Translations under genes and position numbers: made by a program
The notes under the pieces: model-generated
What the model saw: the letters and a program-made list of their open reading frames with translations, nothing else
Told to the model about the DNA's origin: nothing
Database searches by the model: none
Virus record (IMG/VR): IMGVR_UViG_3300025087_000039
Location: 62,001-125,597 of that record
Reading direction: 5' to 3' (one strand)
DNA from: an uncultured virus (IMG/VR IMGVR_UViG_3300025087_000039)
Taxonomy: Duplodnaviria; Heunggongvirae; Uroviricota; Caudoviricetes
DNA length: 63,597 bases
Part shown: positions 10,938-36,427 of the stretch, piece after piece
Layout of the letters: each line of letters starts with the position of its first letter
Position numbering within the stretch: the stretch's first letter is position 1

Positions 10938-10948
10938 GTTAGAAATAT

Positions 10949-10982
10949 ATGTGGTGGGAAGGGGAAACTCTTCCCACCACAT
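10949..10982 (+). terminator. strong hairpin (15 bp stem, GAAA loop), no U-tail
   Basis: ATGTGGTGGGAAGGG-GAAA-CTCTTCCCACCACAT. Confidence 0.6.
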
Positions 10983-11001
10983 CAATATAATAGAGAGGAA
11001 T

Positions 11002-19585: not shown

Positions 19586-19879
19586 ATGATTCTTTATCGT
19601 ACCTTGGATTTAGGTTATGATTTCTTTGACGAATCTCTGGAAAAAATACAAGAAAAAATTAATTTTCTCATTGATCAGAACGGAAAAGATTCTACCATTG
19701 CTATCAGGGAAGATTATGGAGATATAAATATTTCATTACATACATGTAGGGAAGAAACTAAAGAAGAAGAAGCGTTACGTCTTAAAAAAGTAGAGTATTA
19801 TTCTATCTTAAAAGAATTAGAAAAAGATAAAAAAGTTAAACAATATTTAGATCTTAAAGAAAAAATTAATAATGGATAG
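19586..19879 (+). CDS. small coiled-coil protein, 'ETDEEF' paralog family (copy 1)
   Basis: REETKEEEALRLKK...QYLDLKEK resembles copies at 39091, 39422, 40565, 61415. Confidence 0.65.
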   Translation: MILYRTLDLGYDFFDESLEKIQEKINFLIDQNGKDSTIAIREDYGDINISLHTCREETKEEEALRLKKVEYYSILKELEKDKKVKQYLDLKEKINNG

Positions 19880-20909: not shown

Positions 20910-21195
20910 CAAGGCTATTGATTTTATTCGTATTTTGAGAGTTGATGAATCAAAAGTTTCTTTTATTAAAAAAGACGGAACTGCAAGAATAATGAAATGC
21001 ACTTTAGATTTTGATAAGATACCAAAAGAAAAGAGACCAAAAGGAATTGATATTACAAAAATTTTAAGTTTGATAAGCAAGTCAAATCTTTTACATGTTT
21101 TTGATCTCGAGAAAAAAGAATGGAGATCTATACCTTTTGACAGGACTGAATATGTTGAAAACGGGAATAAAAAATTTAAAATAAGCATAAGATAG
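20890..21195 (+). CDS. WYL_2/DUF2693-like SH3-fold protein
   Basis: VSFIKKDGTARIMKCTL...VFDLEKKEWRSI. Confidence 0.75.
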   Translation: MKMEIIDKAIDFIRILRVDESKVSFIKKDGTARIMKCTLDFDKIPKEKRPKGIDITKILSLISKSNLLHVFDLEKKEWRSIPFDRTEYVENGNKKFKISIR

Positions 21196-21209
21196 AAAGG
21201 GCTTAAAAA

Positions 21210-21572
21210 ATGATAATGAAGCCTTTAATCGGTCAAATAGTTTTAGATATATATGGAAAAAAAGTTTGGATCAATTCAATAGGTGGTTGTATTTTACGAA
21301 TTAATAATGTTAATTTTGTAAGAAATAATAATGAAGAACTGGATGAAAATATTATAGAAAAATTCAATATGATAGATATTAATTGTTCAGATAGTAATAG
21401 CGCTGTTGTATTAAATAATAATATAGGAAGTGAAAAAAATATAAATAAATTTACGTTTTTAGAAAAGAGTTTATTTTGTTTATCTCAAATAGACAATGAA
21501 GAACTTCAAAAAGAAATAATAGATTTTTTTGAAAAGGTTAGAACGAAAGGGCTAACAACGGATGGAAAATAA
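21210..21572 (+). CDS. hypothetical protein
   Basis: 120 aa ORF overlapping the start of the E2-like gene. Confidence 0.6.
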   Translation: MIMKPLIGQIVLDIYGKKVWINSIGGCILRINNVNFVRNNNEELDENIIEKFNMIDINCSDSNSAVVLNNNIGSEKNINKFTFLEKSLFCLSQIDNEELQKEIIDFFEKVRTKGLTTDGK

Positions 21573-23919
21573 TTGGATCTATAAGTTAGATTCAAGAATA
21601 GTTATCGATAAAAATTTTGTGATAAAGGAATATGGTTATAAAAAAGATGATCTATTTTTAAAACTTGGAGATGTAAAATTTCCTGCTGCAAAATTTTCAA
21701 ATCAATTTATTAATAAAGATTCAGAAGATTTATTGATGTTACCTGGGGTTAGGTTTTTGAAAAAAATTTCTGGAAATCAATGGAAATTTTTATTTGAGGA
21801 ACCTCCTCAAATAAAAACAGTTTATGTTTCACCAGCATTGATTGATTATGAAAAAGGAATGATACAGAATCCAGAAATTGTTGAACTCTTTTTGAAAAAT
21901 ATTTATAAAATAAAGGGACGATATGCGGTTCGATTATCTTTTCCTTTTGTCATCTTTACTGGGGTAATTAGAAAAATAAAGGAAAATGTTTTTGACTCAA
22001 TGTCATTATCAGCTTACATTGCTCCAAGACAATTAAATAGTTTTGATGATAAATTATATTTGCCACCTTTGTCAAATATTATGTTTACTGGATCGGTATG
22101 TTGCCCGAGAACTTCTGGAGATACGATAGGGAGCACAATTTTAAATCAATTAAGAGTTTTTTGGGAATCTGAATTTAATACAGATTATTATAATGGAAGA
22201 AAATATACAAGTGAAAGTGGAAATGAGTTAGGAACAATTTTAGCTTGGAATTATAATACAAAGATTGATCCATTATTTATTTATGATAAAAAATTTGTCC
22301 AAGCGGATTCTTTGTTGAGTAATCTTTTTAATGGTGAAAATTTAATAACTGTTAAAACTCTTTTTGAAAGAATACAAAGTTCTTTTTCGAATATTGAATC
22401 AGATAATTTTTCTAGGATAGAAAGAACATTGACATATTTAGAAATTCAGAAAGATAATAATATTATCAGGTTGGATATTGGTGATGAGATTGTAATAGGG
22501 GATAAAGTTTTATATATTTTAAATATATTTTTAGAAAACAATATATCTGTTATAGATTATGACACAAATGAAACGAAAGAAATTAAATTAACAAAGAAAA
22601 TTTCTCATGATACTTATGATTATTATATTAAGAAAAAGTTTTTGATTAATAATTTAGAATTTTCTAGAGGAGATTTAATTCATATCACTTCTCCTATGAA
22701 TTATTTTGGATCGATTAATAGAATTGTCCAAAGGGCAGATGGAAGTCAATATTTAAAATTAGATAATAGTTATTTTAATTTTAATATCAAAAATTTAGTT
22801 TTTGAAAAATATCAAGATTCTAGTAAAGATTATTGTGGTGAGTCAATCAAATTAAATAAGAAATATTTTTATTTCAGGTCAGGTCATACTCCTTATGAAA
22901 TTGAATTGTCAGATATTTTTATAAAAGATGGAAATATAATGTATAAAACTTTAAGAGATGGATATAATAATAATAATACCATTATCCCAGATACAAAAAA
23001 TCTCGTTCCTATAGAAAAAGTTAAAACACACAAAGAAGAGTTTTTCTATAACGGAGCACAGATTTTTCATATAAGCGAATATTATAGTATCGATGATTAT
23101 AAGTTTGTAGATAACGGCTTCGACCTTTTTTTAGATTTTTCAAATGTTTTAAAAAATAATTCGATAAATATTTCTGGTAGAAAGAATTTTTCTTTTAAAG
23201 AGGGTGATCTTGTTATCGAAACAAGAAATACAAAATATAAAGTATATGAAATCAAAAAAATTACATCTTCAAGAAATAATAATTTAGAGGTCACTTATCA
23301 AGATGGTAAAATATCTCCTCTACTTATTTATAATACAAATGTTAATCCATTTATAAATAAATTTTATATGAAATACAATGAGTTATATAGCGGTATAGAA
23401 TTTAAAGCAATAAATAGTGATATTCCCGGTTTTGTAAAAAATAAAATATACAAATTAATAGGTTTTGTAGATGGATTTAAAAATATTCCACTGTGTTACA
23501 TGTCAAATGGAATGACTGTTTGGCCACACAATTTAATTCAATCTTTTAATGTCGTTTCAATAAATGAATTGAAAATTGAAGATTTAAATAGTCATGCAAT
23601 AGGAGAGAAATTTCCTAAAGTTGAAGGCCCAAAAGCAAGAGTCCCTCATTTGGACGGAGAAGTGTCCTTCAAATATATAAACGGAAGATTTACAGAAAAA
23701 ATTATAAATGGACAAATAAAATTGTACATGGGAGAAAAAAACTTTATTCCAAAAATAGATGAAGACGATTTAGATAATCAAATTTGTAGAGGAATAATTT
23801 TTCCAAGGTTGACTGGTGAAAAAAATGTATTTTTAAATCAAAATTACATAGAACATAATTTATTAGGGCTGATTCCGAATTATTTTATTCCTGAAGAGGT
23901 TTTAAAAGGAGCAGCTTAA
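21562..23919 (+). CDS. large protein with prokaryotic E2 family D (PRTRC protein B)-like domain, paralog 1
   Basis: LSFPFVIF..LYLPPLSNIMFTGSVCC..FWESEFN pattern; next to JAB, ThiF and Ubl genes. Confidence 0.7.
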   Translation: MENNWIYKLDSRIVIDKNFVIKEYGYKKDDLFLKLGDVKFPAAKFSNQFINKDSEDLLMLPGVRFLKKISGNQWKFLFEEPPQIKTVYVSPALIDYEKGMIQNPEIVELFLKNIYKIKGRYAVRLSFPFVIFTGVIRKIKENVFDSMSLSAYIAPRQLNSFDDKLYLPPLSNIMFTGSVCCPRTSGDTIGSTILNQLRVFWESEFNTDYYNGRKYTSESGNELGTILAWNYNTKIDPLFIYDKKFVQADSLLSNLFNGENLITVKTLFERIQSSFSNIESDNFSRIERTLTYLEIQKDNNIIRLDIGDEIVIGDKVLYILNIFLENNISVIDYDTNETKEIKLTKKISHDTYDYYIKKKFLINNLEFSRGDLIHITSPMNYFGSINRIVQRADGSQYLKLDNSYFNFNIKNLVFEKYQDSSKDYCGESIKLNKKYFYFRSGHTPYEIELSDIFIKDGNIMYKTLRDGYNNNNTIIPDTKNLVPIEKVKTHKEEFFYNGAQIFHISEYYSIDDYKFVDNGFDLFLDFSNVLKNNSINISGRKNFSFKEGDLVIETRNTKYKVYEIKKITSSRNNNLEVTYQDGKISPLLIYNTNVNPFINKFYMKYNELYSGIEFKAINSDIPGFVKNKIYKLIGFVDGFKNIPLCYMSNGMTVWPHNLIQSFNVVSINELKIEDLNSHAIGEKFPKVEGPKARVPHLDGEVSFKYINGRFTEKIINGQIKLYMGEKNFIPKIDEDDLDNQICRGIIFPRLTGEKNVFLNQNYIEHNLLGLIPNYFIPEEVLKGAA

Positions 23920-26363
23920 TGCTGAAAAAGCAGATTTTCATATGCGGAAATGAAGCTGGAATAAACTATTTAAACGGTACGACTATTTTTGCAAAAAAAT
24001 CATGGTTCTATCAACCAATAGCAGAAAAACCTTTTCAATTAACAAAAGAAATGTCAGAATTGGATTTTTATATTTCTGATTCTAATAAAAATAAATATAT
24101 TGTTTTTCATGATGAACCACAAAAAAGAACAATACGCCTTCATAGCTATTTAGTTCAGAGACATTTAGAAGAATTAAATGAAATAAATCCTGAAGGGTTT
24201 AAAACATTACGTGAAATAAAAAAGAATGAATTGATTGAACCGATGAACTTTTTTCTTTCGTTTCCTTATATTTATTTTGGAGCAAAATTATTTGAAGATG
24301 AAGGTGATATTCATGCTGAAAGGGTTTGTGCATTTGTCTCTAAAACTCCAATTAAATCTATGGAAGAAAAAGTATTTAGAGTTCCATTACCTAATATAGA
24401 GCCTAGTGGAAAAATTTGTATGGGAACAGGAATTAGAAGCAAAAATATTTCTGGACTTATAAAAACAATACGAACGGTATTTTGGACATCGACATTTAAT
24501 GATGATATTTTACAAAATGTTATTGCATATTCATCATATCCAACATTCAAAAACTTTTTTCAGTGGCAAATTCTAACAAAAAGCTCAGAAGAAAATATAG
24601 CTTTGAAATCTAAATATGTCCAAATTGGATCATTATATGATGCTTTAGTTTTTGGAAGATCTCAGAATAATCGACCGTCTGAGGAACCTGTAAGACGTCA
24701 AAGTTCTGAAGATTATAATTATAATAATTTTGAAGATTTATATCACTCAATTTTAAAAAAAATGGAACCTAAAAAGATTTCTTTATATGGCAAGGAATAT
24801 TATGTATATTCTACAAATTTTTACTATGGGGAGCCATTTTATTTATCAAAAAAGAAAAAAACATTTTTCTTAGCTTGTGTTCATGATAATAGAAGATTAT
24901 ATTTTATTTTAGAAAAAAATAAATATGGCAATACAGATCGTGAAAAATATTTTCTTATTAAACTTAGTGGTAAAAAGGATATGGATTTTTATATTAAAAA
25001 AAGAGGTATTCTTCATAAAAACACAGAAATTATAGTTGGGGGAATTCCATTTAAAAAAGATGATATGGTAAAAAATGAGAATCATATTAAAGATAATTTT
25101 TCTTTAATTTCAATGGTTTATACAGATTCTGATGGAAATAATGTTTATATAAAAGATAATTCTAATTTAACTTTTTTCATTAATAATGATAATACAATTA
25201 AAAAATTTATTCTAACAGATTGTTTTGATAAGCCAATAGATGGTAATAAAATATATTATAATCTTGATAATGTTCCTGGAACTAATTTATTAATTGGAGA
25301 TATGAGATTTTATGGGAGAGATTTGAAAGTTCAAAGTAATGGAAGCAATACATATCTTTCTTATAATAAAAATTTAATAGCAATAAAAAATATTATTTTA
25401 GCAGAGGATGTCGAAAAATTTACATGTATTGATAAGAAATTAGGTTTCATAGATAATCGTTCTAGAATATCTATGGGCGTAAATGTCTGTACATATGAGG
25501 ATGAAATATATTTAATAAAAAATACGTCAAGTTTTTGTCCCAATTTGAGAAAATTCTTTAAAGACGATAAAGTACAAATTGGTGGAATCACTGATTTTAA
25601 TTTACCTCTTAACGAAATATTCTTCTTTGGGCATGAATTTTTATTTGGAATTGATAGATTTAAGGAATATAGTTCTGAGTATATAACTGGACTTAAACAA
25701 AGACATGCCGTCATAGATTCAAATTGTAGTATTTTTAATCCTTTTATAAGGAAATTTTATACAAGTTATTTTAATTTACATACTGGAATGGTTATGAGAT
25801 ATATTTCAGGTTTGCCTAATTTTATAGAAAATGAAGAATATTGTATTTTAGGCTTTGTTGATGGTTTTATTGATATGGCCAAAAATATAAGAATTCCAGC
25901 CATTTTCATGTCAAATGGCGTTACGATATGGCCTCAAGATTTGATTAGATTTTTTCAATTTACAGAAAAGAAGAATGAAATTGATCTAGAGAAGTTTCAA
26001 TTCACTAATCATGTTCATTCGACTTTTCAAAAAGGAGATTTATTGTTTAAAAGATCAGCTTTTTATTTACATGATGATCAACCAGATTCAAATGAATTTG
26101 ATTGGTATAATTTCAATACTATTTGTGAATCGGCAATAGATTCAAAGATTAAAAGTATAAATTTATTTTTAAGACCAATTGTGTATCCAAGAGTTCCCTT
26201 AAATGAAGAAGGAACAAAAGATAGAGTTTTTATTGGACAAAGATGTATTACAAACTGTCCTAAAACTTTTGATTTAGAAGAAAAATATTTATATCCTTAT
26301 AAACCGGAATTTATAGATTCAAAAGTTCTTGATAAGTTTGTTTCGAAAAAGAAAGGAAAGTAA
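23919..26363 (+). CDS. large protein with prokaryotic E2 family D-like domain, paralog 2
   Basis: LSFPYIYF..VFRVPLPNIEPSGKICMG..FWTSTFN; shares GFVDGF..MSNG.T.WP..LI..F block with paralog 1. Confidence 0.75.
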   Translation: MLKKQIFICGNEAGINYLNGTTIFAKKSWFYQPIAEKPFQLTKEMSELDFYISDSNKNKYIVFHDEPQKRTIRLHSYLVQRHLEELNEINPEGFKTLREIKKNELIEPMNFFLSFPYIYFGAKLFEDEGDIHAERVCAFVSKTPIKSMEEKVFRVPLPNIEPSGKICMGTGIRSKNISGLIKTIRTVFWTSTFNDDILQNVIAYSSYPTFKNFFQWQILTKSSEENIALKSKYVQIGSLYDALVFGRSQNNRPSEEPVRRQSSEDYNYNNFEDLYHSILKKMEPKKISLYGKEYYVYSTNFYYGEPFYLSKKKKTFFLACVHDNRRLYFILEKNKYGNTDREKYFLIKLSGKKDMDFYIKKRGILHKNTEIIVGGIPFKKDDMVKNENHIKDNFSLISMVYTDSDGNNVYIKDNSNLTFFINNDNTIKKFILTDCFDKPIDGNKIYYNLDNVPGTNLLIGDMRFYGRDLKVQSNGSNTYLSYNKNLIAIKNIILAEDVEKFTCIDKKLGFIDNRSRISMGVNVCTYEDEIYLIKNTSSFCPNLRKFFKDDKVQIGGITDFNLPLNEIFFFGHEFLFGIDRFKEYSSEYITGLKQRHAVIDSNCSIFNPFIRKFYTSYFNLHTGMVMRYISGLPNFIENEEYCILGFVDGFIDMAKNIRIPAIFMSNGVTIWPQDLIRFFQFTEKKNEIDLEKFQFTNHVHSTFQKGDLLFKRSAFYLHDDQPDSNEFDWYNFNTICESAIDSKIKSINLFLRPIVYPRVPLNEEGTKDRVFIGQRCITNCPKTFDLEEKYLYPYKPEFIDSKVLDKFVSKKKGK

Positions 26364-27478
26364 TGTTCCCAATATATTTATACGATGATAAAAAACTAAT
26401 ACCAAAAGAAGACATTGCATATCTTATCGGAAAAAATGGAATTTTTATTAAAAAACATTCTCCTATCGTTGATGCTTTGGTTCCGGTCGATAAAATTTCT
26501 TGTCTGGAAGAAATCAAAAGTTATGGGGTAATAAACGTTCCAAAATTACCTAAAGAAATAGGGGGATTAACTTATAAATTTATGAAAAAAATGTATGAAA
26601 AATATCATTCAGAAAGTATTGTAATGCTTTTTTATTCTCCGGAAAAAGGGTTTAGATTATATTGTCCCTTTCAAAATATTTCATCTGCTTCAATTAAATA
26701 TTTAAAGCCTAAAACTTTTAGGGGGTATACATTAATTGGAACTATTCATAGTCATGCTGGATTTTCAGCATTTCATTCCGGAGTCGATGATTCAGATGAA
26801 TTTGGTTTTGATGGGTTACATGTCACTTTTGGAAATTTTAGTGATGAAAAAACTTTTACAATTTCTTGTAGTTGTGTGGTAAATGGAAAAAGGTTTATGT
26901 ATGATCCCAAAGATTATTTTGAGGGCTTAACGGTTATAAAGGAGTTTACAAAAACATGGGATTATCGCATCCAAGGATATAATACAACTCCTTCAAATAA
27001 ATTTATGTTTAAAGAAAAAGATTTAAAGAAAATTAATATTCCCACCTGTTGGGATCGAAGAATAAATCAGCCGAAAATTTCTCAACTTAAAGAAAATATT
27101 GGAGAACTTAAAGTAAATGATTTTCAATACAGTGGACGTTTTAGTGGGGCTTATAGAGAATTTTATGAAGGTTATGGAGATTATTTATTTGGAGCTGGTG
27201 GCTCCAATTATTATAAAAATTATGGGTTAATTGATTGGGCTGGAAAAACGCCAACCACCGATCAAAAATTACGACATGAAAATCAAAAGAAAATAAATGC
27301 ACTAACTGAGTTTTATAAAACTGAAGATTTTGAACCAAGTATGTTGGTCGATGAATTGATAGATAGAGGTCTTTGTTTTGAAATTGATAGGGATCAACTT
27401 GAAGCGGTTATCGATACATTTTTTAATGGAGAAATAGTTGAGGATGATGCTGAAGAAGGAGGTCTTGCTGTTTCATGA
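26363..27478 (+). CDS. JAB/JAMM metallo-isopeptidase (PRTRC protein A-like)
   Basis: YLIGKNGIF, catalytic E in HSESIV, JAMM motif GTIHSHAGFSAFHSGVDDSDE, GLHVTFG. Confidence 0.9.
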   Translation: MFPIYLYDDKKLIPKEDIAYLIGKNGIFIKKHSPIVDALVPVDKISCLEEIKSYGVINVPKLPKEIGGLTYKFMKKMYEKYHSESIVMLFYSPEKGFRLYCPFQNISSASIKYLKPKTFRGYTLIGTIHSHAGFSAFHSGVDDSDEFGFDGLHVTFGNFSDEKTFTISCSCVVNGKRFMYDPKDYFEGLTVIKEFTKTWDYRIQGYNTTPSNKFMFKEKDLKKINIPTCWDRRINQPKISQLKENIGELKVNDFQYSGRFSGAYREFYEGYGDYLFGAGGSNYYKNYGLIDWAGKTPTTDQKLRHENQKKINALTEFYKTEDFEPSMLVDELIDRGLCFEIDRDQLEAVIDTFFNGEIVEDDAEEGGLAVS

Positions 27479-28167
27479 ATATAAAAATTATAGGGTTGGG
27501 TGGAATAGGAACAGTTTTTTCTGAATTGGTAACGAGATATTTAACATATTCTGGAATTAATAATATTTCAATTTGTTTTATTGACGGTGATTCTTTTGAA
27601 AGAAAAAATTCTGAAAGACAAATTTTTCAAAATCTTGGGAATAAAGCAGAGATAAAATTTAGAGAAATTAATAATCCGATGGGAAGTATTAATTATACAT
27701 ATATTCCGGAATATATTAATGAAAATAATATCAACAGAATTATTTTTGAGGATGACATTGTATTTTTGTGTGTTGATAATCACGCAACAAGAAAATTAGT
27801 CTCAGATCATTGTGTATTGTTAAGGAACATAATATTAATATCTGGTGGCAATGAACTTTTGGATGGCAATGTTCAAATTTTTATTAGGAAAGATAACAAA
27901 AATATTACCCCAACCATAACTGATTATCATCCAGAGATCAATGAGCCATTGGATAAAAACCCCAATGATATGAGTTGCGAAGAATTATCAAGATTATCAG
28001 AACCCCAAATTTTCTTTACAAACGCTGGAGTCGCAATTTTTATGTGTTTTTCATTTTATAATATTTTAAATCAAAAAGATTTTAATGTTTCTGAAGTTTA
28101 TTTTGATATTCCGAAACTTGTGTCTGATTCAAAAATTAGGTCTCCATATGTCAGAAAGCATGCTTAA
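27475..28167 (+). CDS. ThiF/E1-like adenylating enzyme
   Basis: IIGLGGIG, IDGDSFERKNSERQ, CVDNHATR, SGGN, candidate catalytic Cys in MSCEE. Confidence 0.92.
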   Translation: MNIKIIGLGGIGTVFSELVTRYLTYSGINNISICFIDGDSFERKNSERQIFQNLGNKAEIKFREINNPMGSINYTYIPEYINENNINRIIFEDDIVFLCVDNHATRKLVSDHCVLLRNIILISGGNELLDGNVQIFIRKDNKNITPTITDYHPEINEPLDKNPNDMSCEELSRLSEPQIFFTNAGVAIFMCFSFYNILNQKDFNVSEVYFDIPKLVSDSKIRSPYVRKHA

Positions 28168-28252
28168 AAATTAAGTTTTTCGTTTTTTTACCTTCTGTTT
28201 TCCTCGCAGCAAAAACAAAACCACGAAGTACCACAAGAAAGGGTCTCACACC

Positions 28253-28690
28253 ATGTATACCGCCGAACAGCTGTCCGCCATGACCGTTCGTGAACTCCGT
28301 GACATCTGCGTCAGCCGTGGGATCACCGGGATGTCCAAGCGCCGGAAGGATGAGATCATCAGCGCCATCCTGGCCAACACCCGGAACGACGAAGCGGGTC
28401 AGCCTGGCCCCACCGCAATCCGTGGGCTCCAGTATGACGCGACCAGCACCCGGGTGTCCGGTGGGAACCAGATCACAACGACCATCCGGGTCACCTCCGG
28501 TGCAAGCTCGGGGAACTACCCCGTCGTCGGGAAGACCGTGGGCGAGGTTTCTCGCTTCCTGGCGGAAGCCCTCAACATCGACCGGATGGCCCAGGGTATC
28601 GTGAACGGTGACGTGAAGGACGACAACTACGTTCTCCAGGCCAACGACTCCCTCGAGTTCCTGAAGCCTGCCGGACGGAAGGGTTTCTAA
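28253..28690 (+). CDS. Rho-N-terminal-like domain fused to ubiquitin-like (beta-grasp) protein
   Basis: N-term LSAMTVRELRDIC..GITGMSKRRKDEIISAIL (Rho_N-like); C-term GKTVGEV..LNI..VNG..DDNYVL..DSLEFLKPAGRKGF; about 63% GC. Confidence 0.85.
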   Translation: MYTAEQLSAMTVRELRDICVSRGITGMSKRRKDEIISAILANTRNDEAGQPGPTAIRGLQYDATSTRVSGGNQITTTIRVTSGASSGNYPVVGKTVGEVSRFLAEALNIDRMAQGIVNGDVKDDNYVLQANDSLEFLKPAGRKGF

Positions 28691-28700
28691 ACCATCTAAC

Positions 28701-28732
28701 CATGAGGGGGGCTTCGGCCCCCCTCATGTTTT
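28701..28732 (+). terminator. intrinsic terminator with C(UUCG)G loop
   Basis: perfect 12 bp stem CATGAGGGGGGC-TTCG-GCCCCCCTCATG followed by TTTT. Confidence 0.9.
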
Positions 28733-28746
28733 AAAAGGGAATAAAA

Positions 28747-29385
28747 ATGACATTTTTTATTTTTTCTATTGTGGTGTTGTTTATGGCAGCGTTTTTACTT
28801 AAAATCCTAAAATTGAAGAAAAATAATAATATTATAGAAGCTGATTATATTGTAGAAGATTCATTAAATTTATGGGAAAAGTATTTTAGTAAAAGAATTG
28901 TATATGTTTTTAGGAAAAATTTTTTAGGTAAATTTATGACAATATGTCTTTTTCTTGATAGCGAAGGTAATGTTTTGTCCAGGGGTATTTCAATTTGTTC
29001 CTTAGATGATAATATGACAAATTATGGAGGAATTTCATTATCTGCGTCTAGAGCGTATAATGCGTTTATCACCACAAAAAATTCAGAAAGAATAATTCCA
29101 AGAAAAATGAAAAATTATACAAGAAGATATAATTTTAAAACAATTGAAGAAAGAGATATTTTTATAAAAGATATTGAACTAGAATTGGAAAGACTTTTAT
29201 TACCTCATGAATATTCTTTAAAAATAAGAAACTTAACTTTACATCTGACGATTCCTAAAAGTTATTTACTATTTTTTGCTAAACAATATTATGAATATAA
29301 ATCTGAATATCAACCTTTATTTTTAACGGAAGAAGAAAAACAAGAAATCAACAAAAGGATTGAAAAAGAAAGATTGAAAAAATGA
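28747..29385 (+). CDS. hypothetical protein with N-terminal hydrophobic segment
   Basis: MTFFIFSIVVLFMAAFLL; SRGISICS motif. Confidence 0.65.
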   Translation: MTFFIFSIVVLFMAAFLLKILKLKKNNNIIEADYIVEDSLNLWEKYFSKRIVYVFRKNFLGKFMTICLFLDSEGNVLSRGISICSLDDNMTNYGGISLSASRAYNAFITTKNSERIIPRKMKNYTRRYNFKTIEERDIFIKDIELELERLLLPHEYSLKIRNLTLHLTIPKSYLLFFAKQYYEYKSEYQPLFLTEEEKQEINKRIEKERLKK

Positions 29386-30269
29386 TTATTCGTGAAATAT
29401 GTATAATTGGAACCGGAACGTTCGGGAGTCATTTATCAATCAAATTTTCAGAGGCTAAAGAAATAAAAAAATTAATACTTATTGATTATGATTTAGTAAA
29501 TGAAAATGATATTTTAAAGGGTGATTTTACCACGTTAGGAAAAAGAAAAGTTTTTGATTTATCTGAAAGAATAGAAAAAACAAGGGGCTATGAATTTATA
29601 AAGCCCATTGATTCGAAGAACGGATTTGATTTTTCAAAAATACTTAGATATAGTTATGAAAATTTATTAATTATTGATTGTACTGATGTATTAAATAATA
29701 AAAATCAATCAGATATAAAAAGTTATATTTCTGGAAGAAAAGTTATTTTAGATTGCAGAAAAAATTTGAATTATAGCAATGGATTTGAAGGAAGATATTT
29801 TGAAGATTTATCAAAATATGAATTAGAACAAGCGGCAATTTTAGCAAGAAATACAATTCTTAATAAATCTTTTGAAAATATTTTGACTAAGGAATTAGTT
29901 CAAATTTTAGATATTCCTAGAATAGATAATTATCTTCAAAAGACTTTAAAAAATGAATCTGAAAAAGATGATTTAATAGTTCAAAACGATGGAAATTTAG
30001 AAAGATTTTATAATTTTTCAAGTTCAGTAAAACCGATCATAGAAAAGAATAAGAGGCAAGATATAGATTTTTATCTAGATTCTAAGTTTTCTACCTTCCC
30101 AATTAAAACTACATGTTTAAAAGAAAGACTACAAACTCCTTTAGATCTTTGTGAATTATTAAAAACCTTTTCTAGTTTTCCAACTGTTAAATATAATTAT
30201 ATTATTAACATCGTAGATGAAGGGAATGATTTTTATGTGGAATTAATAAGAGAATCGGGAGCAGCATGA
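29382..30269 (+). CDS. divergent ThiF/E1-like protein
   Basis: IIGTGTFGS, LILIDYDLVNENDI, GKRKV, IIDCTD; lacks the canonical N-L-x-R-Q. Confidence 0.72.
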   Translation: MIIREICIIGTGTFGSHLSIKFSEAKEIKKLILIDYDLVNENDILKGDFTTLGKRKVFDLSERIEKTRGYEFIKPIDSKNGFDFSKILRYSYENLLIIDCTDVLNNKNQSDIKSYISGRKVILDCRKNLNYSNGFEGRYFEDLSKYELEQAAILARNTILNKSFENILTKELVQILDIPRIDNYLQKTLKNESEKDDLIVQNDGNLERFYNFSSSVKPIIEKNKRQDIDFYLDSKFSTFPIKTTCLKERLQTPLDLCELLKTFSSFPTVKYNYIINIVDEGNDFYVELIRESGAA

Positions 30270-30700
30270 ATGATATCATCCTTCAAAATGGAGCGATAGT
30301 TATAAACAAAGATTCTAAAATAAAAATTGAGAAGATAAATAAAAAAATTATTCCTTCTTATTTTATTTTGAATAATGAATATTTTAAAATATTAGAAATA
30401 GATTTGCCATATATTATTAATGGTTATTATGTTAGGGTGATAGATCAAAGAATTCTATCAATTATTTTATGTGGTGTTCATCCGAACGCTGATTTATATT
30501 CTGGTTTATTATGTTTACCTAAGCCTTTTATTGGAAAACATTTTAACGAAAAATTTTTAAACATAATAGAGAATCGGTTTATTTCAATACATAATTTGGA
30601 TAATAGTTATTTTATAGATAAAGCTATTTATCTTAAATATGAAAAGGTAACACACAAACCAAAAATATATATTGTGGAGGATCAATGCCCAAACTCTTAG
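30266..30700 (+). CDS. putative E2/UBC-like protein
   Basis: HPNADLYSGLLCLP matches the HPN-x-G-x-x-C-L E2 active-site signature; in Ubl locus. Confidence 0.55.
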   Translation: MNDIILQNGAIVINKDSKIKIEKINKKIIPSYFILNNEYFKILEIDLPYIINGYYVRVIDQRILSIILCGVHPNADLYSGLLCLPKPFIGKHFNEKFLNIIENRFISIHNLDNSYFIDKAIYLKYEKVTHKPKIYIVEDQCPNS

Positions 30701-33411
30701 ATATTTCTAAGTTTTGTGAAAATCTTCCAGAGGTAACTACATTTGAGATTATTGATAAGAAAAAATTTCATCCAAATGGCCTTTTTTCAGAACAACTTTT
30801 TGGACCAATAAGAAATTATACATGTCAATGTAAAATTTATAGGGGCGTTTCAAAATCCGGAGGAAAATGTAATATTTGTAATGTTGACATAGTTAATAGT
30901 AATGTAAGAAGAAGAAGATTTGGAAAAATTGTTTTGCCTTTTCCAATTGTAAATCCAATGTTTTTTGAACTATTAAGTTTTGTTGGCGGAAAGAAAGTTA
31001 AAGAAATGATTTCTATGTTAATGAAAAATGATAAAAGTATTTTATATAAAGATGATAATGGAGAATTTGTTATAACCACAGATATTGAAAGCATCCCTAA
31101 AGAAAAAATATTTTTTGAAAAAACTGAGGCAATAAAAGAATTTATTACACAAATTACAAAAGAGATTTTAAAGGATGAAGAAAATCCAGAATTAAGTTAT
31201 TGGAATATAATAAAAGAAAATTTAAATAATATTTTAATAAACGAAGTAATTGTTTTACCTCCAGATTTAAGACCCCCATCAAAAACTACGGTAAAAAATG
31301 TTCCTGTCGCAGATCCAATAAATAGATTTTATGTTCAACTTTTAACAAATAAAAAGATCATTGAAAACACTTTGGTCGAAGTTCAAAAAAATAAAAAGAT
31401 ATATTATATGTATTTTAAAGAAATTCAAAAAACTGTAAATCAACTTTATGTTTTTATATTGGAAAAACTTTCTAAAAAAGAAGGATTGATAAGAGGAAAT
31501 ATTTTAGGAAAAAGAATTGATTTTTCAGGGAGAGCCGTAATAGTCCCATCTCCAACTATTAATATTGACGAATGTGTTTTACCCTATGTTATGATTTTAG
31601 AATTATTTAAAATTCAAATTGCACAAAAATTAGTGAATAATGAAAGTTTTAAAATTCTCAACGAGGCAATAGATTTTGTTGATAGATGCATTGATCTTAA
31701 AAGTTTGGATTTATATAAAGAAGCTGAAGAAATTGTAAAGGGTGAAGTTTGTATTTTAAATAGGCAACCCACGCTTCATAGATTAGGAATGCTTGGTTTC
31801 AAAATTAAAATATCCTCAGATAATGTTATAAAAATTCACCCTTTAGCATGTGAGCCATTTAATGCTGATTTTGATGGGGATCAGATGGCGGTATATTTAC
31901 CAATATCTCAAGAGGCAAAAGATGAAGTTCTTGATAAGTTATTGATAACAAATAATTTAAACAGTCCATCAAATGGACAATTAGCGACTATGCCAAATCA
32001 AGATATAATTTTGGGAATTTATATGTTAACAAATGATAAATTTCCTGATTTAACAAAAGAAACTATTTTTAAAAATATTAAAATCACAGAAGGAAGAAAA
32101 TTATTCAATGAGTGTTTTCCAGAAGACTATCCTATAATAAATTACTCTGTAGGCAAAAATGAATTATTAAAAATCTTAAGTGATATTTCACAAAATTATT
32201 CTAAAGAAATATTAGCCATAGTTTTAGATAAGATCAAATTATTGGGATTTAAATATTCAACAATTTTCGGAACCACTATGTCTTTAATTGATTGTACATC
32301 AAAAGATTCTAAGGAATATGTAGATAAAATATTTTCAGGAGAAAATATAAGAAAACAAATCGAAGATATATCTTCAAATGAAACTATAGAAACTTTAAAG
32401 AAAATATTTAAATATTCTTATATGGTTGAATCTGGAGCCAGAGGAACTTGGGACCAAGTTAGACAAATTGTTTTATCAAGAGGGTTTATCTCAAATTTTG
32501 AAGGACAAATTTTACCTGAACCAATTAAAAATAGTTTAATGAATGGGTTAACCAAAAGAGAATTTTTTATATCCACATATGGATGTCGAAAAGGTTTATT
32601 AGACGTTGCATTAAATACTGGAATCTCAGGCTATCTTTCAAGAAAGTTGATTTTTACCTGTTGTAATCTTCAACTTGATTTAAATTTAGAAGATTGTGGA
32701 ACTAAAGATTGTATAGAACTTTTTATTGAAAATGCAGATAAAAGTAAATCTTTAATAGGCAGAAATTATATAGAGAATAATGAATTGAAAAAAATTACAA
32801 TGTTAAATTTTAAAAGTTTAGTTGGAAAAACTTTAAAACTACGAAGTCCTATTTATTGTGAATCTGAAAATATTTGTAAAACTTGTTATGGAGATTTATA
32901 CAAAATTATCAATAGTAAATTTATTGGCGTAGTTGCGGCTCAGTGTCTTGGTGAAAGAGGAACTCAATTAGTTTTAAGAACTTTCCATACTTCTGGGTCT
33001 GCTATAATTAATGAAAAATCTGAAGAAAAAATTGATGAGATGAAACAGATGGATATTATTGGGGATTTAGAAACCGCTTCTGATTTATTACATAGATTTA
33101 AAGATAATAATTTTATGAATTCTTTAAATAATTTATTTAAAGTATATTCCTCTTCTGGAAAAATACATCATGTTCATTTTGAATGTGTGATTTCTCAGTT
33201 AATGTGGCATGGAATGAAAAAATGGAGATTAACCAAAGATCGTGATAAAAAATCTTTAGAAATGAAAAGTGTCCAATCGGTTCCCAGTTATGAAAGTTGG
33301 CTTTTAGCTTTAGCTTTTTCTAATCCAAAAAAGAGCATATTAAATGGAATGGTATATAAAGGTTTATATACTGGAATTATGGACCGAATATTAAAAGGGG
33401 AAAAAGTTTAA
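30685..33411 (+). CDS. RNA polymerase beta'-like subunit, set 2 (unsplit, compact)
   Basis: GLFSEQLFGP, CQC..CNIC, PPDLRP, LGKRIDFSGRAVI, LNRQPTLHRLG, catalytic NADFDGDQ, SGARG, RTFHTSG. Confidence 0.97.
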   Translation: MPKLLDISKFCENLPEVTTFEIIDKKKFHPNGLFSEQLFGPIRNYTCQCKIYRGVSKSGGKCNICNVDIVNSNVRRRRFGKIVLPFPIVNPMFFELLSFVGGKKVKEMISMLMKNDKSILYKDDNGEFVITTDIESIPKEKIFFEKTEAIKEFITQITKEILKDEENPELSYWNIIKENLNNILINEVIVLPPDLRPPSKTTVKNVPVADPINRFYVQLLTNKKIIENTLVEVQKNKKIYYMYFKEIQKTVNQLYVFILEKLSKKEGLIRGNILGKRIDFSGRAVIVPSPTINIDECVLPYVMILELFKIQIAQKLVNNESFKILNEAIDFVDRCIDLKSLDLYKEAEEIVKGEVCILNRQPTLHRLGMLGFKIKISSDNVIKIHPLACEPFNADFDGDQMAVYLPISQEAKDEVLDKLLITNNLNSPSNGQLATMPNQDIILGIYMLTNDKFPDLTKETIFKNIKITEGRKLFNECFPEDYPIINYSVGKNELLKILSDISQNYSKEILAIVLDKIKLLGFKYSTIFGTTMSLIDCTSKDSKEYVDKIFSGENIRKQIEDISSNETIETLKKIFKYSYMVESGARGTWDQVRQIVLSRGFISNFEGQILPEPIKNSLMNGLTKREFFISTYGCRKGLLDVALNTGISGYLSRKLIFTCCNLQLDLNLEDCGTKDCIELFIENADKSKSLIGRNYIENNELKKITMLNFKSLVGKTLKLRSPIYCESENICKTCYGDLYKIINSKFIGVVAAQCLGERGTQLVLRTFHTSGSAIINEKSEEKIDEMKQMDIIGDLETASDLLHRFKDNNFMNSLNNLFKVYSSSGKIHHVHFECVISQLMWHGMKKWRLTKDRDKKSLEMKSVQSVPSYESWLLALAFSNPKKSILNGMVYKGLYTGIMDRILKGEKV

Positions 33412-33418
33412 TTTTTTC

Positions 33419-36400
33419 ATGGAGGATTCAATGATTCGAAATCCTTTTTATGAGATTGACGATCCTGTAAATAATATGTTTTCAATCAGAAAAAATGAAT
33501 ATGATGAAATACTTAGCAAGGTTAATATAATTTTACAACCTGCTAGAGATCTTGATTTTATTGTCGAAGAATTGGATTTTTATGATCATAAATTTACTTC
33601 TGGTGAACTTCATAGAACATTGAGACGAAATTTGATTATCAAATTGAAGAAAAGAAATTCAACGATTGATTTAAGTATGTCTGTTCCAAAATTAATTGAT
33701 AATAATTATTTTTATATTAACGGTCGAAAGAAAATGCCTTTATTTCAAATGTTCGATTTACCTGTTGTGACAAGAGGAAAAATTATTAAATTAAGAACTT
33801 GTGTTTCTACATTAATGTTAATAAATGAAAAAACAGAGCCTTTTATAAAAGCATCTTTTTTGGGTAAAAAAGTCCCTTTAGTTTTATTGATGGCATGCTA
33901 TTTTTCTGAAAAAGAGTTGGAAGAAAGAAAACAAAAACTTTTAGGTATGAAAGAGCATAATGTTTTTTCAGAAAATTTATTAAAAGATATTGAGGAATTT
34001 CAGGTTGAAAATGAAGGAATTGAAGAAGAATTTTTGATGGAAATGTTAGGGCGGCATTACACAAAATATAATATTAAATCAAAAGGTTATGATGTTATAT
34101 ATGCTCTTGATATAATTCCAAAAGTTGATATTATGTCTTCCCAATTCTTCAGAACTGAAAATGTTTTAGATGAAATTCTTTATCCTTTAATTAATGGATT
34201 TTATAATGATTTAGATTTAAGAAATAAAAGAATAAGATGTTTTGAATATGTTGTTTTAGAAAAGGTTGCTAAAGCCGTTTTTGATTTATGCGTTACAAAT
34301 AGAACAACACGAAATCCAAATTTCAATATTAATACTAGCCATATAATTTCTGAATGTAATGTTTCAGATATTGTTCAATTTGATTTTGCGATAAATCCAA
34401 TTGAAGAATTAACCAGTTTATCAAGAACCAGTTTAGTTGGGCCTGGTGGTTTTAAGAGAGAAAATGTTCCAAGGGGGTTGAGAGATATAAATGACTCTAT
34501 GTATAATCGAATCTGTCCTGTTGATACCCCAGATAGAGAAAATTGTGGAGTTTTACAAAATCTTCTAATAAATACAAAATTAGATAATAATTTAAGATTT
34601 TCAGAAGAGAGAAGCAATCAACCAATTTCTATCCCAGTATCATTTGTCCCATTTCTTGAAAGAGATGACCAGACGAGATTGCAAATGGCATCATCACAAA
34701 TGAGACAAACAATTCTTTTAAAAAATAATGATTCACAATTAATCAAAACAGGTTGTGAAGGATTATATACCGATAAAACTCAATTTGTAAAAACTGCAAA
34801 AAATAAAGGAACTGTAATTTATTTGGATCAAAAGATTTTAATTGTAAAATATGAGGATGAAACGCCTGACTTTTTTGAGGTTGGCCATAGAGAAATATAT
34901 GTAAAAAATTTAGACATTTATAAAGTTTATGTGAAAGTTGGAGATACATTTAATAAAGGAGATATTTTAGCGGAGAGTTTATTTTGTAGAAATGGTGAAA
35001 TAAATTTTGGAAAAAATCTTCTGACCGGAGTTATGGTTTATTATGGATATAATTATGAAGACGGCATTGTAATTTCAGATCGATTGATAAAAGATGATTC
35101 ATTTACCTCAGTTCATTTTAAAGATTTATCTTTTAATATTCCATCAAATAAAGTTCTTTTATCTTTAGAAAAAAATTCATATAAACCTCTTCCAGAAAAA
35201 TTTGAAAGAATTTATAAAGGGCAAGCATATGCCAAAACTAAAAGTATTTTATCTGGAACTGAATTTACTAGTGTTTTTGAAGAAGTGGAAGAACAAACTA
35301 CAGATAAAAATGTTATAATCACAGACCTCAATTTATATATAAATGATTGGAACAAAGAAATTCCAGAATATTCAAGATGGGTTGAAACCGTTAAAAATGA
35401 ACAGATACGAAATGAAGATATTTTTAGAGAATCTCTAAAAGATCATTTTGAAAAAAGAGATATTGAAGATATTATTAGAGATAATTTTCTAAATAAATTT
35501 TCTCAGGCTGGAAGATATAAAATTAAGGGAGAAAGAATAAGCGGTATACTTGTTGAAATGTCAGGAATATTTTTTAGAAAAATCCAGGTTGGAGATAAGA
35601 TAGCTAACAGACATGGAAATAAAGGGGTTATCTCAGCAATAATTCCTGAAGAAAAAATGCCTGTTTTGGAAGATGGAAGACATTTAGATATCTGTATAAA
35701 TCCTCTTGGAATAATTTCCAGAATGAATATTGGACAATTATTTGAACTTCATTTGGGGATGGCAGTTAATACCCTTAAAATGAAATCTTTAGAGATGTTA
35801 AAAAATTCAGAACCTCAGGAAAAAATAAAGGAATTTTTAATTGAGTTTATTAAAATAATTGATAGAACAGAAGGCAATTGGTATACAAAACAATTTATTG
35901 AAAATTTTCCAGAAAATATTGAAAAAGAATTTTTAGAGAATTTTTCAGTTCATCAGCCACCTTTTGAGTCAACAGATATGAAGGGAATTGAAGACGCTTT
36001 AAAATATACAAATGAGAATTTTAAGTATAAGGTTTTTGATCCAATTTCTAAGATGGATATTTTAAATGAGGTTGCAGTAGGGTTTTTAACTTTTTTTAGA
36101 ATTGCACATATTGCTGAAGATAAGCTCGCCGCCAGAGGAATCGGCTCATATACAAAGAAAACTCTTCAACCGTTAGGTGGAAGAAAGAATAAAGGCGGAC
36201 AAAGATGTGGTGAAATGGAGTCCGCTAGTTTGATTGGGTACGAAGCGAGCACAAATCTTTTTGAGATGTTTACCACAAAATCTGATTGTATAGATTTAAA
36301 AAATCAACATATTAAAAATAGTATTAGAAATACTGGAATGACGATGTTTGATGAAGAAATAAATATTTCCCCTGAATCTGTAAATCTCTTATATTCATAT

Positions 36401-36427
36401 TTAAAGGCAATCGGAATAGAGCCGTGA
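33419..36427 (+). CDS. RNA polymerase beta-like subunit, set 2
   Basis: FYINGRKK, GPGG, RICPVDTPD, GYNYEDG, GDKIANRHGNKG, SRMNIGQ, QPLGGRKNKGGQRCGEME. Confidence 0.96.
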   Translation: MEDSMIRNPFYEIDDPVNNMFSIRKNEYDEILSKVNIILQPARDLDFIVEELDFYDHKFTSGELHRTLRRNLIIKLKKRNSTIDLSMSVPKLIDNNYFYINGRKKMPLFQMFDLPVVTRGKIIKLRTCVSTLMLINEKTEPFIKASFLGKKVPLVLLMACYFSEKELEERKQKLLGMKEHNVFSENLLKDIEEFQVENEGIEEEFLMEMLGRHYTKYNIKSKGYDVIYALDIIPKVDIMSSQFFRTENVLDEILYPLINGFYNDLDLRNKRIRCFEYVVLEKVAKAVFDLCVTNRTTRNPNFNINTSHIISECNVSDIVQFDFAINPIEELTSLSRTSLVGPGGFKRENVPRGLRDINDSMYNRICPVDTPDRENCGVLQNLLINTKLDNNLRFSEERSNQPISIPVSFVPFLERDDQTRLQMASSQMRQTILLKNNDSQLIKTGCEGLYTDKTQFVKTAKNKGTVIYLDQKILIVKYEDETPDFFEVGHREIYVKNLDIYKVYVKVGDTFNKGDILAESLFCRNGEINFGKNLLTGVMVYYGYNYEDGIVISDRLIKDDSFTSVHFKDLSFNIPSNKVLLSLEKNSYKPLPEKFERIYKGQAYAKTKSILSGTEFTSVFEEVEEQTTDKNVIITDLNLYINDWNKEIPEYSRWVETVKNEQIRNEDIFRESLKDHFEKRDIEDIIRDNFLNKFSQAGRYKIKGERISGILVEMSGIFFRKIQVGDKIANRHGNKGVISAIIPEEKMPVLEDGRHLDICINPLGIISRMNIGQLFELHLGMAVNTLKMKSLEMLKNSEPQEKIKEFLIEFIKIIDRTEGNWYTKQFIENFPENIEKEFLENFSVHQPPFESTDMKGIEDALKYTNENFKYKVFDPISKMDILNEVAVGFLTFFRIAHIAEDKLAARGIGSYTKKTLQPLGGRKNKGGQRCGEMESASLIGYEASTNLFEMFTTKSDCIDLKNQHIKNSIRNTGMTMFDEEINISPESVNLLYSYLKAIGIEP

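What the first reader, a model, noticed from the sequence alone, without database searches (positions are those of the whole stretch)
28253..28690. Ubl fused to a Rho-N-like nucleic-acid-binding domain, with a one-residue cap after the terminal Gly
Seen: residues ~1-41 match the Rho termination factor N-terminal helical motif (L..MTV.ELR..C...GI.G.SK.RKDE.I.AIL); a flexible linker follows, then a Ubl ending G-R-K-G-F. Known: PRTRC-type Ubls end in G-x-K-G, and JAB proteases mature pro-Ubls. Inference: JAB removes the terminal Phe to expose Gly, and conjugation would graft a nucleic-acid-binding module onto target proteins. That would be a covalent tether to RNA/DNA rather than a degradation tag.
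Basis: partly seen in the sequence, partly recalled or inferred. Interest (0 to 1): 0.82.

Follow-up and report, generated by a model that had tools for sequence, protein, structure and literature searches.

The report
Phage ubiquitin-like tag with nucleic-acid anchor
A group of large uncultured phages that bring their own RNA polymerase also carries an intact-looking kit for attaching a small ubiquitin-like tag to other proteins, and the tag has a built-in helical module of a DNA/RNA-binding type, so tagging may pin proteins onto nucleic acid instead of marking them for destruction.

Summary
ORF 28253-28690 (145 aa) is a Rho_N/HEH domain (Pfam E 1.8e-9; best fold match is the Rho N-terminal bundle, Z 9.2), then a linker, then a beta-grasp-like domain ending GRKG-F. 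It ends an E2-E2-JAB-E1-Ubl operon in a large phage with two RNA polymerases; close relatives are listed mReC contigs.

The fusion and terminal Gly are conserved and catalytic residues of E1, E2 and JAB are invariant. The module stands before the RNAP genes in 59 of 63 loci found by RNAP alone.

Correction: the one-residue cap is optional. 42 of 65 viral relatives end at Gly, and Phe is rare. Cleavage after KG is still well supported by poly-Ubl precursors with G-x-K-G at each junction.

Added: signs of high expression (GC3 0.81 vs 0.10-0.30, conserved terminator), tandem Rho_N variants, bacterial relatives lacking Rho_N, and a second E1-like/E2-like pair that is present or absent together with the module.

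It works like a 6d/PRTRC cassette but fails the membership tests. Conjugation is likely (~0.8); the nucleic-acid tether is plausible but unshown (~0.5); targets are unknown. I found no paper describing it.

The parts
28253..28690 (+). Rho_N/HEH-linker-Ubl gene, 145 aa, ending GRKG-F; GC 0.62, GC3 0.81
28253..28378 (+). Rho_N/HEH domain (residues 1-42); invariant basic surface K/R16, G26, K/R29, K32
   Evidence: Pfam E 1.8e-9; Z 9.2 to 1a62; each of the four positions 62 of 62
28379..28468 (+). Variable linker (about residues 43-57) plus a partly conserved beta extension (about 58-72)
   Evidence: pLDDT under 50 at 45-53, strand at 61-67 in the full-length model; length 27-64
28469..28684 (+). 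Ubl (beta-grasp-like) domain ending at Gly144
   Evidence: G141, K143, G144 invariant
28685..28687 (+). Phe145 cap; optional in the family
   Evidence: confirmed in run X8
28238..28243 (+). Ribosome-binding site after an A-rich leader
   Evidence: sequence; relatives printed show AGGAG-type sites
28701..28732 (+). 12-bp GC hairpin with UUCG loop and T run (terminator-like)
   Evidence: hairpin of -12 kcal/mol or stronger after the Ubl in 59 of 64 relatives
27475..28167 (+). ThiF-family E1 with GxGGxG, N45-R48-Q49, D101 and catalytic-type Cys168
   Evidence: Pfam E 3e-20; C168 65 of 65
26363..27478 (+). JAB/JAMM peptidase, E84...H129-S-H131...S139...D142, plus a variable tail
   Evidence: Prok-JAB E 2.9e-5; all five 63 of 63
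23919..26363 (+). Prok-E2_D-like E2 (N159, C167, D196) fused to about 550 aa of unknown function; copy 2
   Evidence: E 2.5e-5; Cys and Asn 59 of 59
21562..23919 (+). Prok-E2_D-like E2 (N172, C180, D208); copy 1; relatives have one copy
   Evidence: E 0.0022; no locus with two E2 among 80
28747..29385 (+). Accessory ORF of unknown function, patchy in relatives
   Evidence: 26 of 80 loci; no Pfam hit
29382..30269 (+). Second E1-like protein: keeps GxGxxG, D35, D37, K56, D99; lacks the R-Q motif and the catalytic-Cys loop; C-terminal domain with a fixed T-G-A-A-type end
   Evidence: TIGR02354 E 3.7e-7; 80 of 80 loci
30266..30700 (+). Small protein with invariant H72, N74, C83 (HPN-x8-C, classical E2 signature); a lead only
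   Evidence: motif ORF at this place in 71 of 80 loci; PDB E2s at E 0.4; UQ_con in 1 of 62 members
30685..36427 (+). Phage RNAP beta-prime and beta genes, the constant downstream neighbours (context)
   Evidence: 80 of 80 loci

Best explanation
This is the modifier of a phage-encoded ubiquitin-like conjugation system. JAB trims whatever follows Gly144 (here Phe) and probably also removes the tag from conjugates. The E1 adenylates Gly144 and takes it as a Cys168 thioester. An E2 (Cys167 or Cys180) receives it and transfers it to lysines of target proteins, with the long E2 tail as a candidate target selector. The tag is made in large amounts and carries a basic HEH module on a flexible arm, so each conjugation gives the target a reversible, low-specificity DNA/RNA anchor. 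That would gather phage or host transcription/replication proteins on phage nucleic acid, or hold host factors in place. Shown: anatomy, conservation, intact catalytic motifs, synteny, precursor forms. Inferred: cleavage, conjugation, high expression, nucleic-acid binding. Guessed: targets; the neighbouring RNAP is the first candidate.
For: Catalytic residues are invariant in E1 (65 sequences), JAB (63) and E2 (59). JAB-E1-Ubl order holds in 72 of 72 loci that have all three. Six of 9 poly-Ubl proteins have G-x-K-G at every detected repeat end, L059 is a tandem [HEH-Ubl]x2, and two Ubl-E2 fusion sequences have the KG junction (P0228, P0234). JAB cleavage after the Ubl glycine is shown for Bub (PMC11601596, passages). 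The HEH keeps K/R16, K/R29 and K32 in 62 of 62 and K/R30 in 55 of 62, and 21 of 190 proteins carry it twice, as expected for avidity. Rho's own bundle is described as positively charged and aiding RNA binding (PMC11347177, passage). Chloroflexota operons have the same Ubl without the HEH (4 of 4), so it is an add-on to a working modifier.
Against: There is no experiment on any member. The Ubl fold scores are modest (Foldseek best E 0.049, VIA Z 5.2) and the two models disagree on the first strands. E2 hits are under the Pfam cut-off, and the E2 profile finds nothing in the PDB sequences. The HEH's net charge is a median +2 and is not positive in 11 of 62. Fold neighbours include protein-binding LEM-BAF and MANF/CDNF-BiP domains. 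One lineage lacks the whole block at this place and one record has a frameshifted Ubl, so it is not shown to be essential. Adjacency to RNAP is not evidence of a target.
Confidence: 0.5

Rival explanations
1. Conjugation is real, but the HEH is a protein-binding adaptor (for a phage or host factor such as RNAP, NusA or a chaperone), so the tag builds protein complexes instead of nucleic-acid tethers.
For: LEM-BAF and MANF/CDNF-BiP complexes are among the fold matches at Z 5.2-6.2; the net charge is low.
Against: The best matches are Rho, EndoVII, FAN1 and SAP domains; the invariant residues are basic, not hydrophobic surface.
Confidence: 0.2
2. The abundant Ubl is itself the product: it is linked to other copies (K138/K143 or the N-domain lysines), or to one scaffold, to form a multivalent nucleic-acid-binding polymer that organises or shields phage DNA; JAB dissolves it.
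For: Signs of far higher expression than its enzymes; K138 and K143 invariant; tandem HEH forms; other bacterial Ubls form filaments (PMC11601603, abstract and first section).
Against: High expression also fits a tag for many targets; the invariant lysines may serve E1/JAB recognition; no oligomer test was run.
Confidence: 0.12
3. It is a ThiS/Urm1-like sulfur carrier: the C-terminal thiocarboxylate delivers sulfur for thiolation of phage DNA or RNA, and the HEH brings it to the nucleic acid.
For: The closest Pfam family of the domain is ThiS; the phage has cofactor and base-modification genes nearby (radical SAM, FolE2, PTPS).
Against: An E2 with invariant Cys is in the operon and occurs fused to the Ubl. 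No desulfurase, rhodanese or thiolase appeared among the window proteins scanned. The lineage without the block keeps the radical SAM and FolE2 genes.
Confidence: 0.1
4. It is a counter-defence decoy or jammer: the phage Ubl, E1 or JAB saturates or reverses host Bil/CBASS/Bub conjugation, and the phage cascade's own conjugation is secondary.
For: Hosts use such systems against phages (PMC11601603 and PMC11601596, passages); the block is absent from one lineage.
Against: A fixed position and a Ubl tree that follows the RNAP tree (Mantel rho 0.81, 0 of 999 permutations, 62 taxa) are unlike fast-turnover counter-defence genes; a complete cascade is not needed for a decoy.
Confidence: 0.08

Closest known systems
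Operon type 6d of Iyer, Burroughs and Aravind 2006 (PMC1779556) / PRTRC cassette (NCBIfam TIGR03735-03737)
   Same: Stand-alone Ubl, JAB, E1 and Prok-E2_D. Two plasmid operons of this type have small ORFs ending GSKG-VK and GGAKG, so the G-x-K-G end, capped or not, is shared.
   Different: All scores are far below the cut-offs. The Ubl is not detected by PRTRC or Prok_Ub models, and its profile does not detect those plasmid ORFs. The E2 has N-x-D where the plasmid E2s have N-x-H. No ParB was seen. It has an HEH fusion, an 800-aa E2, a second E1/E2-like pair and a fixed phage position.
Chloroflexota mobile-element operons L083-L086 (unpublished relatives found here)
   Same: Same Ubl subfamily (31-37% identity) with E2, JAB and E1 that are homologous to the window's.
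   Different: 78-81 aa Ubl without the HEH, capped in 4 of 4; order Ubl-E2-X-JAB-E1; short E2; beside relaxase-like and coupling-protein-like genes.
Bil (types I/II) and Bub (6e) bacterial conjugation systems
   Same: Ubl-E1-E2-JAB logic; JAB exposes the Gly of a precursor (PMC11601596); Ubls carry varied N-terminal domains (PMC11601603).
   Different: These are host-encoded defence or stress systems. The N-terminal domains listed are N/G-rich tails, coiled coils, DUF1508 and extra beta-grasps; 'Rho' and 'DNA-binding' do not occur in that paper's main text. Bub uses a Ser E2 and lacks the E1 Cys, whereas both Cys are invariant here.
mReC phages (Weinheimer and Aylward 2020, PMC7481178)
   Same: Contigs behind L041/L170, L050 and L061 match mReC contigs by sample number and length; their supplement lists ThiF, Prok-JAB, Rho_N and Prok-E2_D Pfam hits as separate rows.
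   Different: The main text has no 'ubiquitin', 'ThiF', 'JAB' or 'Rho'; the Rho_N protein is not recognised there as a Ubl.
Rho N-terminal helix bundle and HEH relatives (SAP, LEM, T4 endonuclease VII C-terminal domain)
   Same: Same three-helix fold and basic motif.
   Different: No OB-fold RNA site or ATPase; it is appended to a conjugatable domain.

Membership tests
Rho_N / HEH domain | Pfam PF07498 above cut-off and three-helix fold | tested here: met
   37.8 vs 24.9 bits; Z 9.2, rmsd 1.3 A, 47 residues to 1a62
Rho_N / HEH domain | Binds DNA or RNA | not testable with these tools
   Only invariant basic residues
Conjugatable beta-grasp Ubl | Beta-grasp fold | tested here: met
   Topology; hit lists dominated by beta-grasp proteins, with modest scores; a homologue passes the ThiS cut-off
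Conjugatable beta-grasp Ubl | Conserved C-terminal Gly, free or exposed by cleavage | tested here: met
   G144 in 43 of 43; free in 42 of 65 relatives
Conjugatable beta-grasp Ubl | Forms thioesters and target conjugates | not testable with these tools
   Needs biochemistry
PRTRC (NCBIfam) | ThiF, A and B proteins above curated cut-offs | tested here: not met
   45.6/144.75, 37/101.8 and 14.8/131.45 bits
PRTRC (NCBIfam) | Protein C / Prok_Ub-type Ubl (model names recalled) | tested here: not met
   No such family among the hits of 63 members at E up to 1
PRTRC (NCBIfam) | ParB, E and F partners (recalled) | tested here: not met
   None among the 10 ORFs from 20890 to 30700 scanned in NCBIfam or in the Pfam scans
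Operon type 6d (Iyer 2006) | Separate Ubl, JAB, E1-like and E2-like genes in one operon | tested here: met
Operon type 6d (Iyer 2006) | E2 has an absolutely conserved His downstream of the Cys | tested here: not met
   No His conserved at 85% or more; Asp in 58 of 59 at F-N-x-D, against N-x-H in two plasmid E2s
Operon type 6d (Iyer 2006) | Alpha-helical partner protein; JAB-N with conserved Arg and Trp | tested here: inconclusive
   JAB has an N-terminal extension but no Arg or Trp conserved there; no partner assigned
Bil / Bub | Bub: Ser E2, Cys-less E1, DUF6527. Bil II: E1 with fused inactive and active domains | tested here: not met
   Cys E1 and Cys E2; single-domain 230-aa E1; no DUF6527 hit
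mReC phages | Phage-clade beta and beta-prime RNAP plus Gp23-type capsid | tested here: inconclusive
   RpoC is 53-59% identical to loci that include listed mReC contigs; Gp23 is in 3 of 3 relatives but not in the 40%-complete own record; no tree against cellular RNAPs was built

The most novel reading that the evidence does not exclude
mReC jumbo phages carry, as a near-core and vertically inherited module, a two-tier ubiquitin-like system (E1/E2/JAB plus a second E1-like and HPN-Cys E2-like pair). It reversibly and covalently grafts a Rho-type nucleic-acid-binding domain onto proteins, for instance their own RNA polymerase, to localise or commandeer transcription and replication. This would be a modifier whose function is nucleic-acid anchoring, which I did not find described in any domain of life.
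Probability: 0.3. Interest if true: 0.92.

Novelty: new variant of a known kind. Interest (0 to 1): 0.74.

Why it matters
The bacterial ubiquitin-like systems tested so far are host defence or stress systems. This one is on the phage side, fixed next to the RNA polymerase genes across a whole clade, and its modifier brings a functional domain with it. The proteins of the 6d/PRTRC-like class have had no test that I could find since their prediction in 2006. Here the tag itself points to a function (nucleic-acid anchoring), and natural controls exist: capped and uncapped, one or two HEH domains, HEH-less bacterial relatives and tandem precursors. All parts are small enough to rebuild in vitro or in E. 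coli. A reversible covalent DNA/RNA anchor would also be a useful tool.

Tried and rejected
Assembly chimera (the gene is 62% GC in a 27% GC genome): rejected. One contig spans 26500-30500 unchanged (X2, possibly the source), a contig of another study bridges the 3' junction with 0 differences (X8), and relatives have the gene at the same place. X8 and X10 have no cover over most of the gene, which proves nothing; the 5' junction has no independent bridge.

Recent transfer of the Ubl gene from outside the clade: not favoured. The Ubl tree follows the RpoC tree (L059, L078 and duplicates left out), although the window's own branch is weakly placed.

Cap as a conserved regulatory feature: rejected. 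Cys caps as simple TGA read-through: not supported, since only 1 of 42 uncapped genes ends in TGA.

C-terminal domain of 29382-30269 as a second Ubl or ubiquitin-fold domain: no profile match to the Ubl (probability 0.1); Atlas leads under 0.9 only.

30266-30700 as an E2: only weak support. Complex prediction of 29382-30269 with 30266-30700 gave no verdict.

Foldseek of the full-length model: nothing at E 0.001 or better. No match for the Ubl in 50,697 phage records; JAB matched one unannotated record. No RNA holder was listed.

Loss or never-gained for the lineage without the block: the tree does not resolve it, and its records are not held for a whole-record search. Whether the S1 fragment at the contig start belongs to the phage is open.

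Literature: ten searches listed no paper on a phage-encoded system of this kind or on an HEH-Ubl fusion. Only top listings were seen, most subscription papers are not held, and the supplements of the two Corbett-lab preprints were not opened (their Table S1 lists Ubl architectures).

Full report
Observation. The ORF is as described: 28253-28690, 145 aa, ending PAGRKGF. Residues 6-42 pass the Pfam Rho_N cut-off (E 1.8e-9). The AlphaFold model's best match among 48,161 chains is the Rho N-terminal bundle (Z 9.2, rmsd 1.3 A, 47 residues), followed by other HEH folds: TFIID, EndoVII, LEM, FAN1, SAP. The C-terminal domain has no Pfam hit above cut-off in this protein. Folded alone it has beta-beta-alpha-beta-beta order (mean pLDDT 67). 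Its neighbours are TGS, MoaD, ubiquitin, SUMO and SAMP proteins, but with modest scores (best Foldseek E 0.049, best Z 5.2). ThiS hits at E up to 1 occur in 54 of 63 family members, and a Chloroflexota homologue passes the ThiS cut-off. The full-length model arranges the first strands differently, so the fold call leans on family context as well. The G-F-stop end is read unchanged in a contig from another study.

Setting. The own genome is a virus record of 125.6 kb, estimated 40% complete; the protein also lies on a contig of 273.8 kb. The window holds two beta-type RNAP genes and beta-prime genes for both sets, topoisomerase II subunits and SbcCD-like genes. Named relatives match mReC contigs of Weinheimer and Aylward. 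Their supplement lists ThiF, Prok-JAB, Rho_N and Prok-E2_D hits as separate rows, but the main text never mentions ubiquitin, ThiF, JAB or Rho. The best annotated phage match of the RNAP is 30% identical, and no record among 50,697 phages matched the Ubl.

The operon. Upstream, abutting or overlapping, lie two Prok-E2_D-like proteins of 785 and 814 aa, a JAB and a ThiF E1. Among 80 viral loci fetched with the Ubl profile (the best 80 of 81), all 80 have the RNAP pair and a second E1-like gene downstream. 74 have the E1, 72 the JAB and 65 an E2, with many loci cut short; JAB-E1-Ubl order holds in 72 of 72, and none has two E2s. As a less biased test I fetched loci with RpoC alone (best 80 of 301). 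Of the 63 with at least 4.5 kb upstream, 59 have E1, JAB and the second E1-like gene, 58 an intact HEH-Ubl and 1 a frameshifted one. The two sets share many contigs. Four records of one lineage (three of them over 99.7% alike where compared) lack the whole block from E2 to the small Cys protein while keeping both flanks; whether it was lost, never gained or moved is unresolved. Catalytic motifs are intact: E1 Cys168 65 of 65; JAB E84, H129, H131, S139, D142 63 of 63; E2 Asn and Cys 59 of 59.

The cap. G141, K143 and G144 are invariant in 43 of 43 homologues, but 35 of the 43 stop at Gly. So do 42 of 65 distinct viral relatives; 15 add Cys, 7 add other tails and 1 is broken. Among 73 distinct metagenome relatives 52 stop at Gly, 17 add Cys, 2 add Phe (one is this protein), 1 adds SK and 1 did not fit the motif. 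Caps are scattered over the tree. The cap is thus tolerated, not required. Cleavage after KG is nonetheless well supported. Six of 9 poly-Ubl proteins have G-x-K-G at every detected repeat end, and three do not. L059 encodes HEH-Ubl twice in one chain. Two sequences join the Ubl to an E2 through GVKG, one of which looks frameshifted and either could be an error. JAB cleavage behind the Ubl glycine is shown for the Bub system (PMC11601596, passages). Because JAB stays intact where the Ubl is uncapped, I infer it also deconjugates.

The HEH. Among 190 proteins from the two protein searches, 132 are HEH-Ubl, 21 have two HEH domains, 21 were scored Ubl only (several with a diverged N-domain), 9 are poly-Ubl and 7 are HEH repeats. 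In 62 phage sequences K/R16, G26, K/R29 and K32 are invariant and K/R30 occurs in 55, but the net charge is only a median +2 and is positive in 51. Four Chloroflexota MAG loci hold the same Ubl subfamily in a Ubl-E2-X-JAB-E1 operon without the HEH, so the HEH is a payload added to a working modifier. Rho's bundle is described as positively charged and assisting RNA binding (PMC11347177, passage). LEM and MANF/CDNF relatives bind proteins. Nucleic-acid binding is the likelier reading, about 60:40, and is unshown.

Expression signs. The gene has GC3 0.81, against 0.10-0.30 for the other 66 window genes tested. In relatives the Ubl has the highest GC3 of the named genes in 51 of 65 loci (mean 0.37, maximum 0.68). 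A strong hairpin follows it in 59 of 64 relatives, against medians of -3.7 to -8.5 kcal/mol after the other genes, except the patchy 212-aa ORF, which also has one in 17 of 22. Its codon choices resemble two other GC-rich ORFs of this genome, including an S1-domain fragment. The Ubl tree follows the RpoC tree (Mantel rho 0.81). I infer a vertically inherited gene tuned for heavy translation in a GC-rich host; no RNA data were available.

A second tier. 29382-30269 is E1-like without the R-Q motif or the catalytic-Cys loop, and ends in ETGAA in 51 of 80 loci, with close variants in most others. 30266-30700 has invariant H72, N74 and C83, and an HPN-Cys ORF stands at this place in 71 of 80 loci. 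Its E2 status rests on the motif (recalled as the classical E2 signature) and weak hits: two PDB E2s at E 0.4, UQ_con in 1 of 62 members. Both genes are absent together with the block, so they probably belong to it. They may be an inactive E1 partner and a second E2, or a separate self-modifier module.

Mechanism. Most likely JAB exposes Gly144, the E1 adenylates it, Cys168 and then an E2 Cys carry it, and target lysines receive a tag bearing a nucleic-acid-binding HEH on a flexible arm; JAB reverses this. Anatomy, conservation and synteny are shown. Chemistry is inferred from Bil/Bub and ubiquitin precedent (about 0.8), the tether from fold and basic surface (about 0.5 overall). Targets are a guess. 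Rivals: protein adaptor 0.2, Ubl polymer 0.12, sulfur carrier 0.1, counter-defence decoy 0.08.

Comparison. It works like operon type 6d/PRTRC (PMC1779556, section 14 and passages) but fails membership. Scores are far under the cut-offs, the Ubl is of another subfamily, Asp stands where plasmid 6d-type E2s have His, and no ParB was seen. The survey of Bil/Bub Ubl architectures lists no Rho/HEH fusion (PMC11601603, part 1 of 6 and a term search; its Table S1 was not seen). The jumbo-phage review of Iyer et al. has no 'JAB', 'Ubl' or 'HEH' (PMC7824862, term search). PMC12619734, PMC13444090 and PMC12360218 (term searches) were not relevant. Ten library searches listed nothing on this system. Earlier notes of this scan report PRTRC-like cassettes in other phages and the duplicated E2 in a near-identical genome; they are unchecked leads and lower the surprise of 'Ubl cassette in a phage' as such.

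Verdict. Real, conserved and apparently undescribed: a new variant of the 6d/PRTRC-like kind, near-core in mReC phages, with a payload-bearing modifier. Interest 0.74.

Noticed in passing
window 29382-30700: Second E1-like protein with a fixed T-G-A-A-type C-terminus, followed by a small HPN-x8-C (E2-like) protein; present or absent together with the Ubl block.
   Followed up: partly
window 21562-26363: The 800-aa E2 is duplicated only in this genome (no duplicate in 80 relative loci). The copies are about 19% identical in the first 300 residues and share a conserved FPKKD...P-L-x-L-CSN-x-x-T-x-W motif near residues 620-670.
   Followed up: partly
G000:C1:3-587, 10243-11175 and about 9000-9450: Other GC-rich islands in the AT-rich genome: a two-S1-domain fragment at the contig start (GC3 0.84) and an ORF of about 290-310 aa without a Pfam hit (GC3 0.74), with codon choices like the Ubl's. 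The S1 piece may be host DNA.
   Followed up: partly
window 148-5977 with G000:C1:60534-62879, and window 30685-36427: Two multisubunit RNAP sets; the two beta-prime proteins are only 30% identical, and the first is split into two ORFs.
   Followed up: no
L170:3161-3523: A second, stand-alone Rho_N-like ORF with an acidic low-complexity tail directly before the E2 in a complete 277-kb relative.
   Followed up: no
L218, L221, L222, L224: A lineage with WYL_2 almost directly before RpoC and no Ubl block; its RpoC has an insertion of about 165 aa, possibly an intein.
   Followed up: partly
L078 / L213: Ubl gene frameshifted between the HEH and the Ubl in an otherwise intact operon (error or pseudogene).
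   Followed up: no
L083-L086: Chloroflexota mobile elements with a Ubl-E2-X-JAB-E1 operon of the same subfamily, next to relaxase-like and coupling-protein-like genes.
   Followed up: partly
window 14531-14959, 19872-20909, 36574-37419; G000:C1:8098-8676: PTPS/QueD, radical SAM, FolE2 and a QueC-like ORF (last label from recall of its start motif): a possible 7-deazaguanine DNA modification pathway.
   Followed up: no
window 44250-44882, 49808-50719, 57878-58321, 62321-63496: RNA-repair and related genes: two RNA ligases, an RlaP nucleotidyltransferase and a NADAR protein.
   Followed up: no
window 57252-57653: Pilin-like ORF with an N-methylation motif.
   Followed up: no
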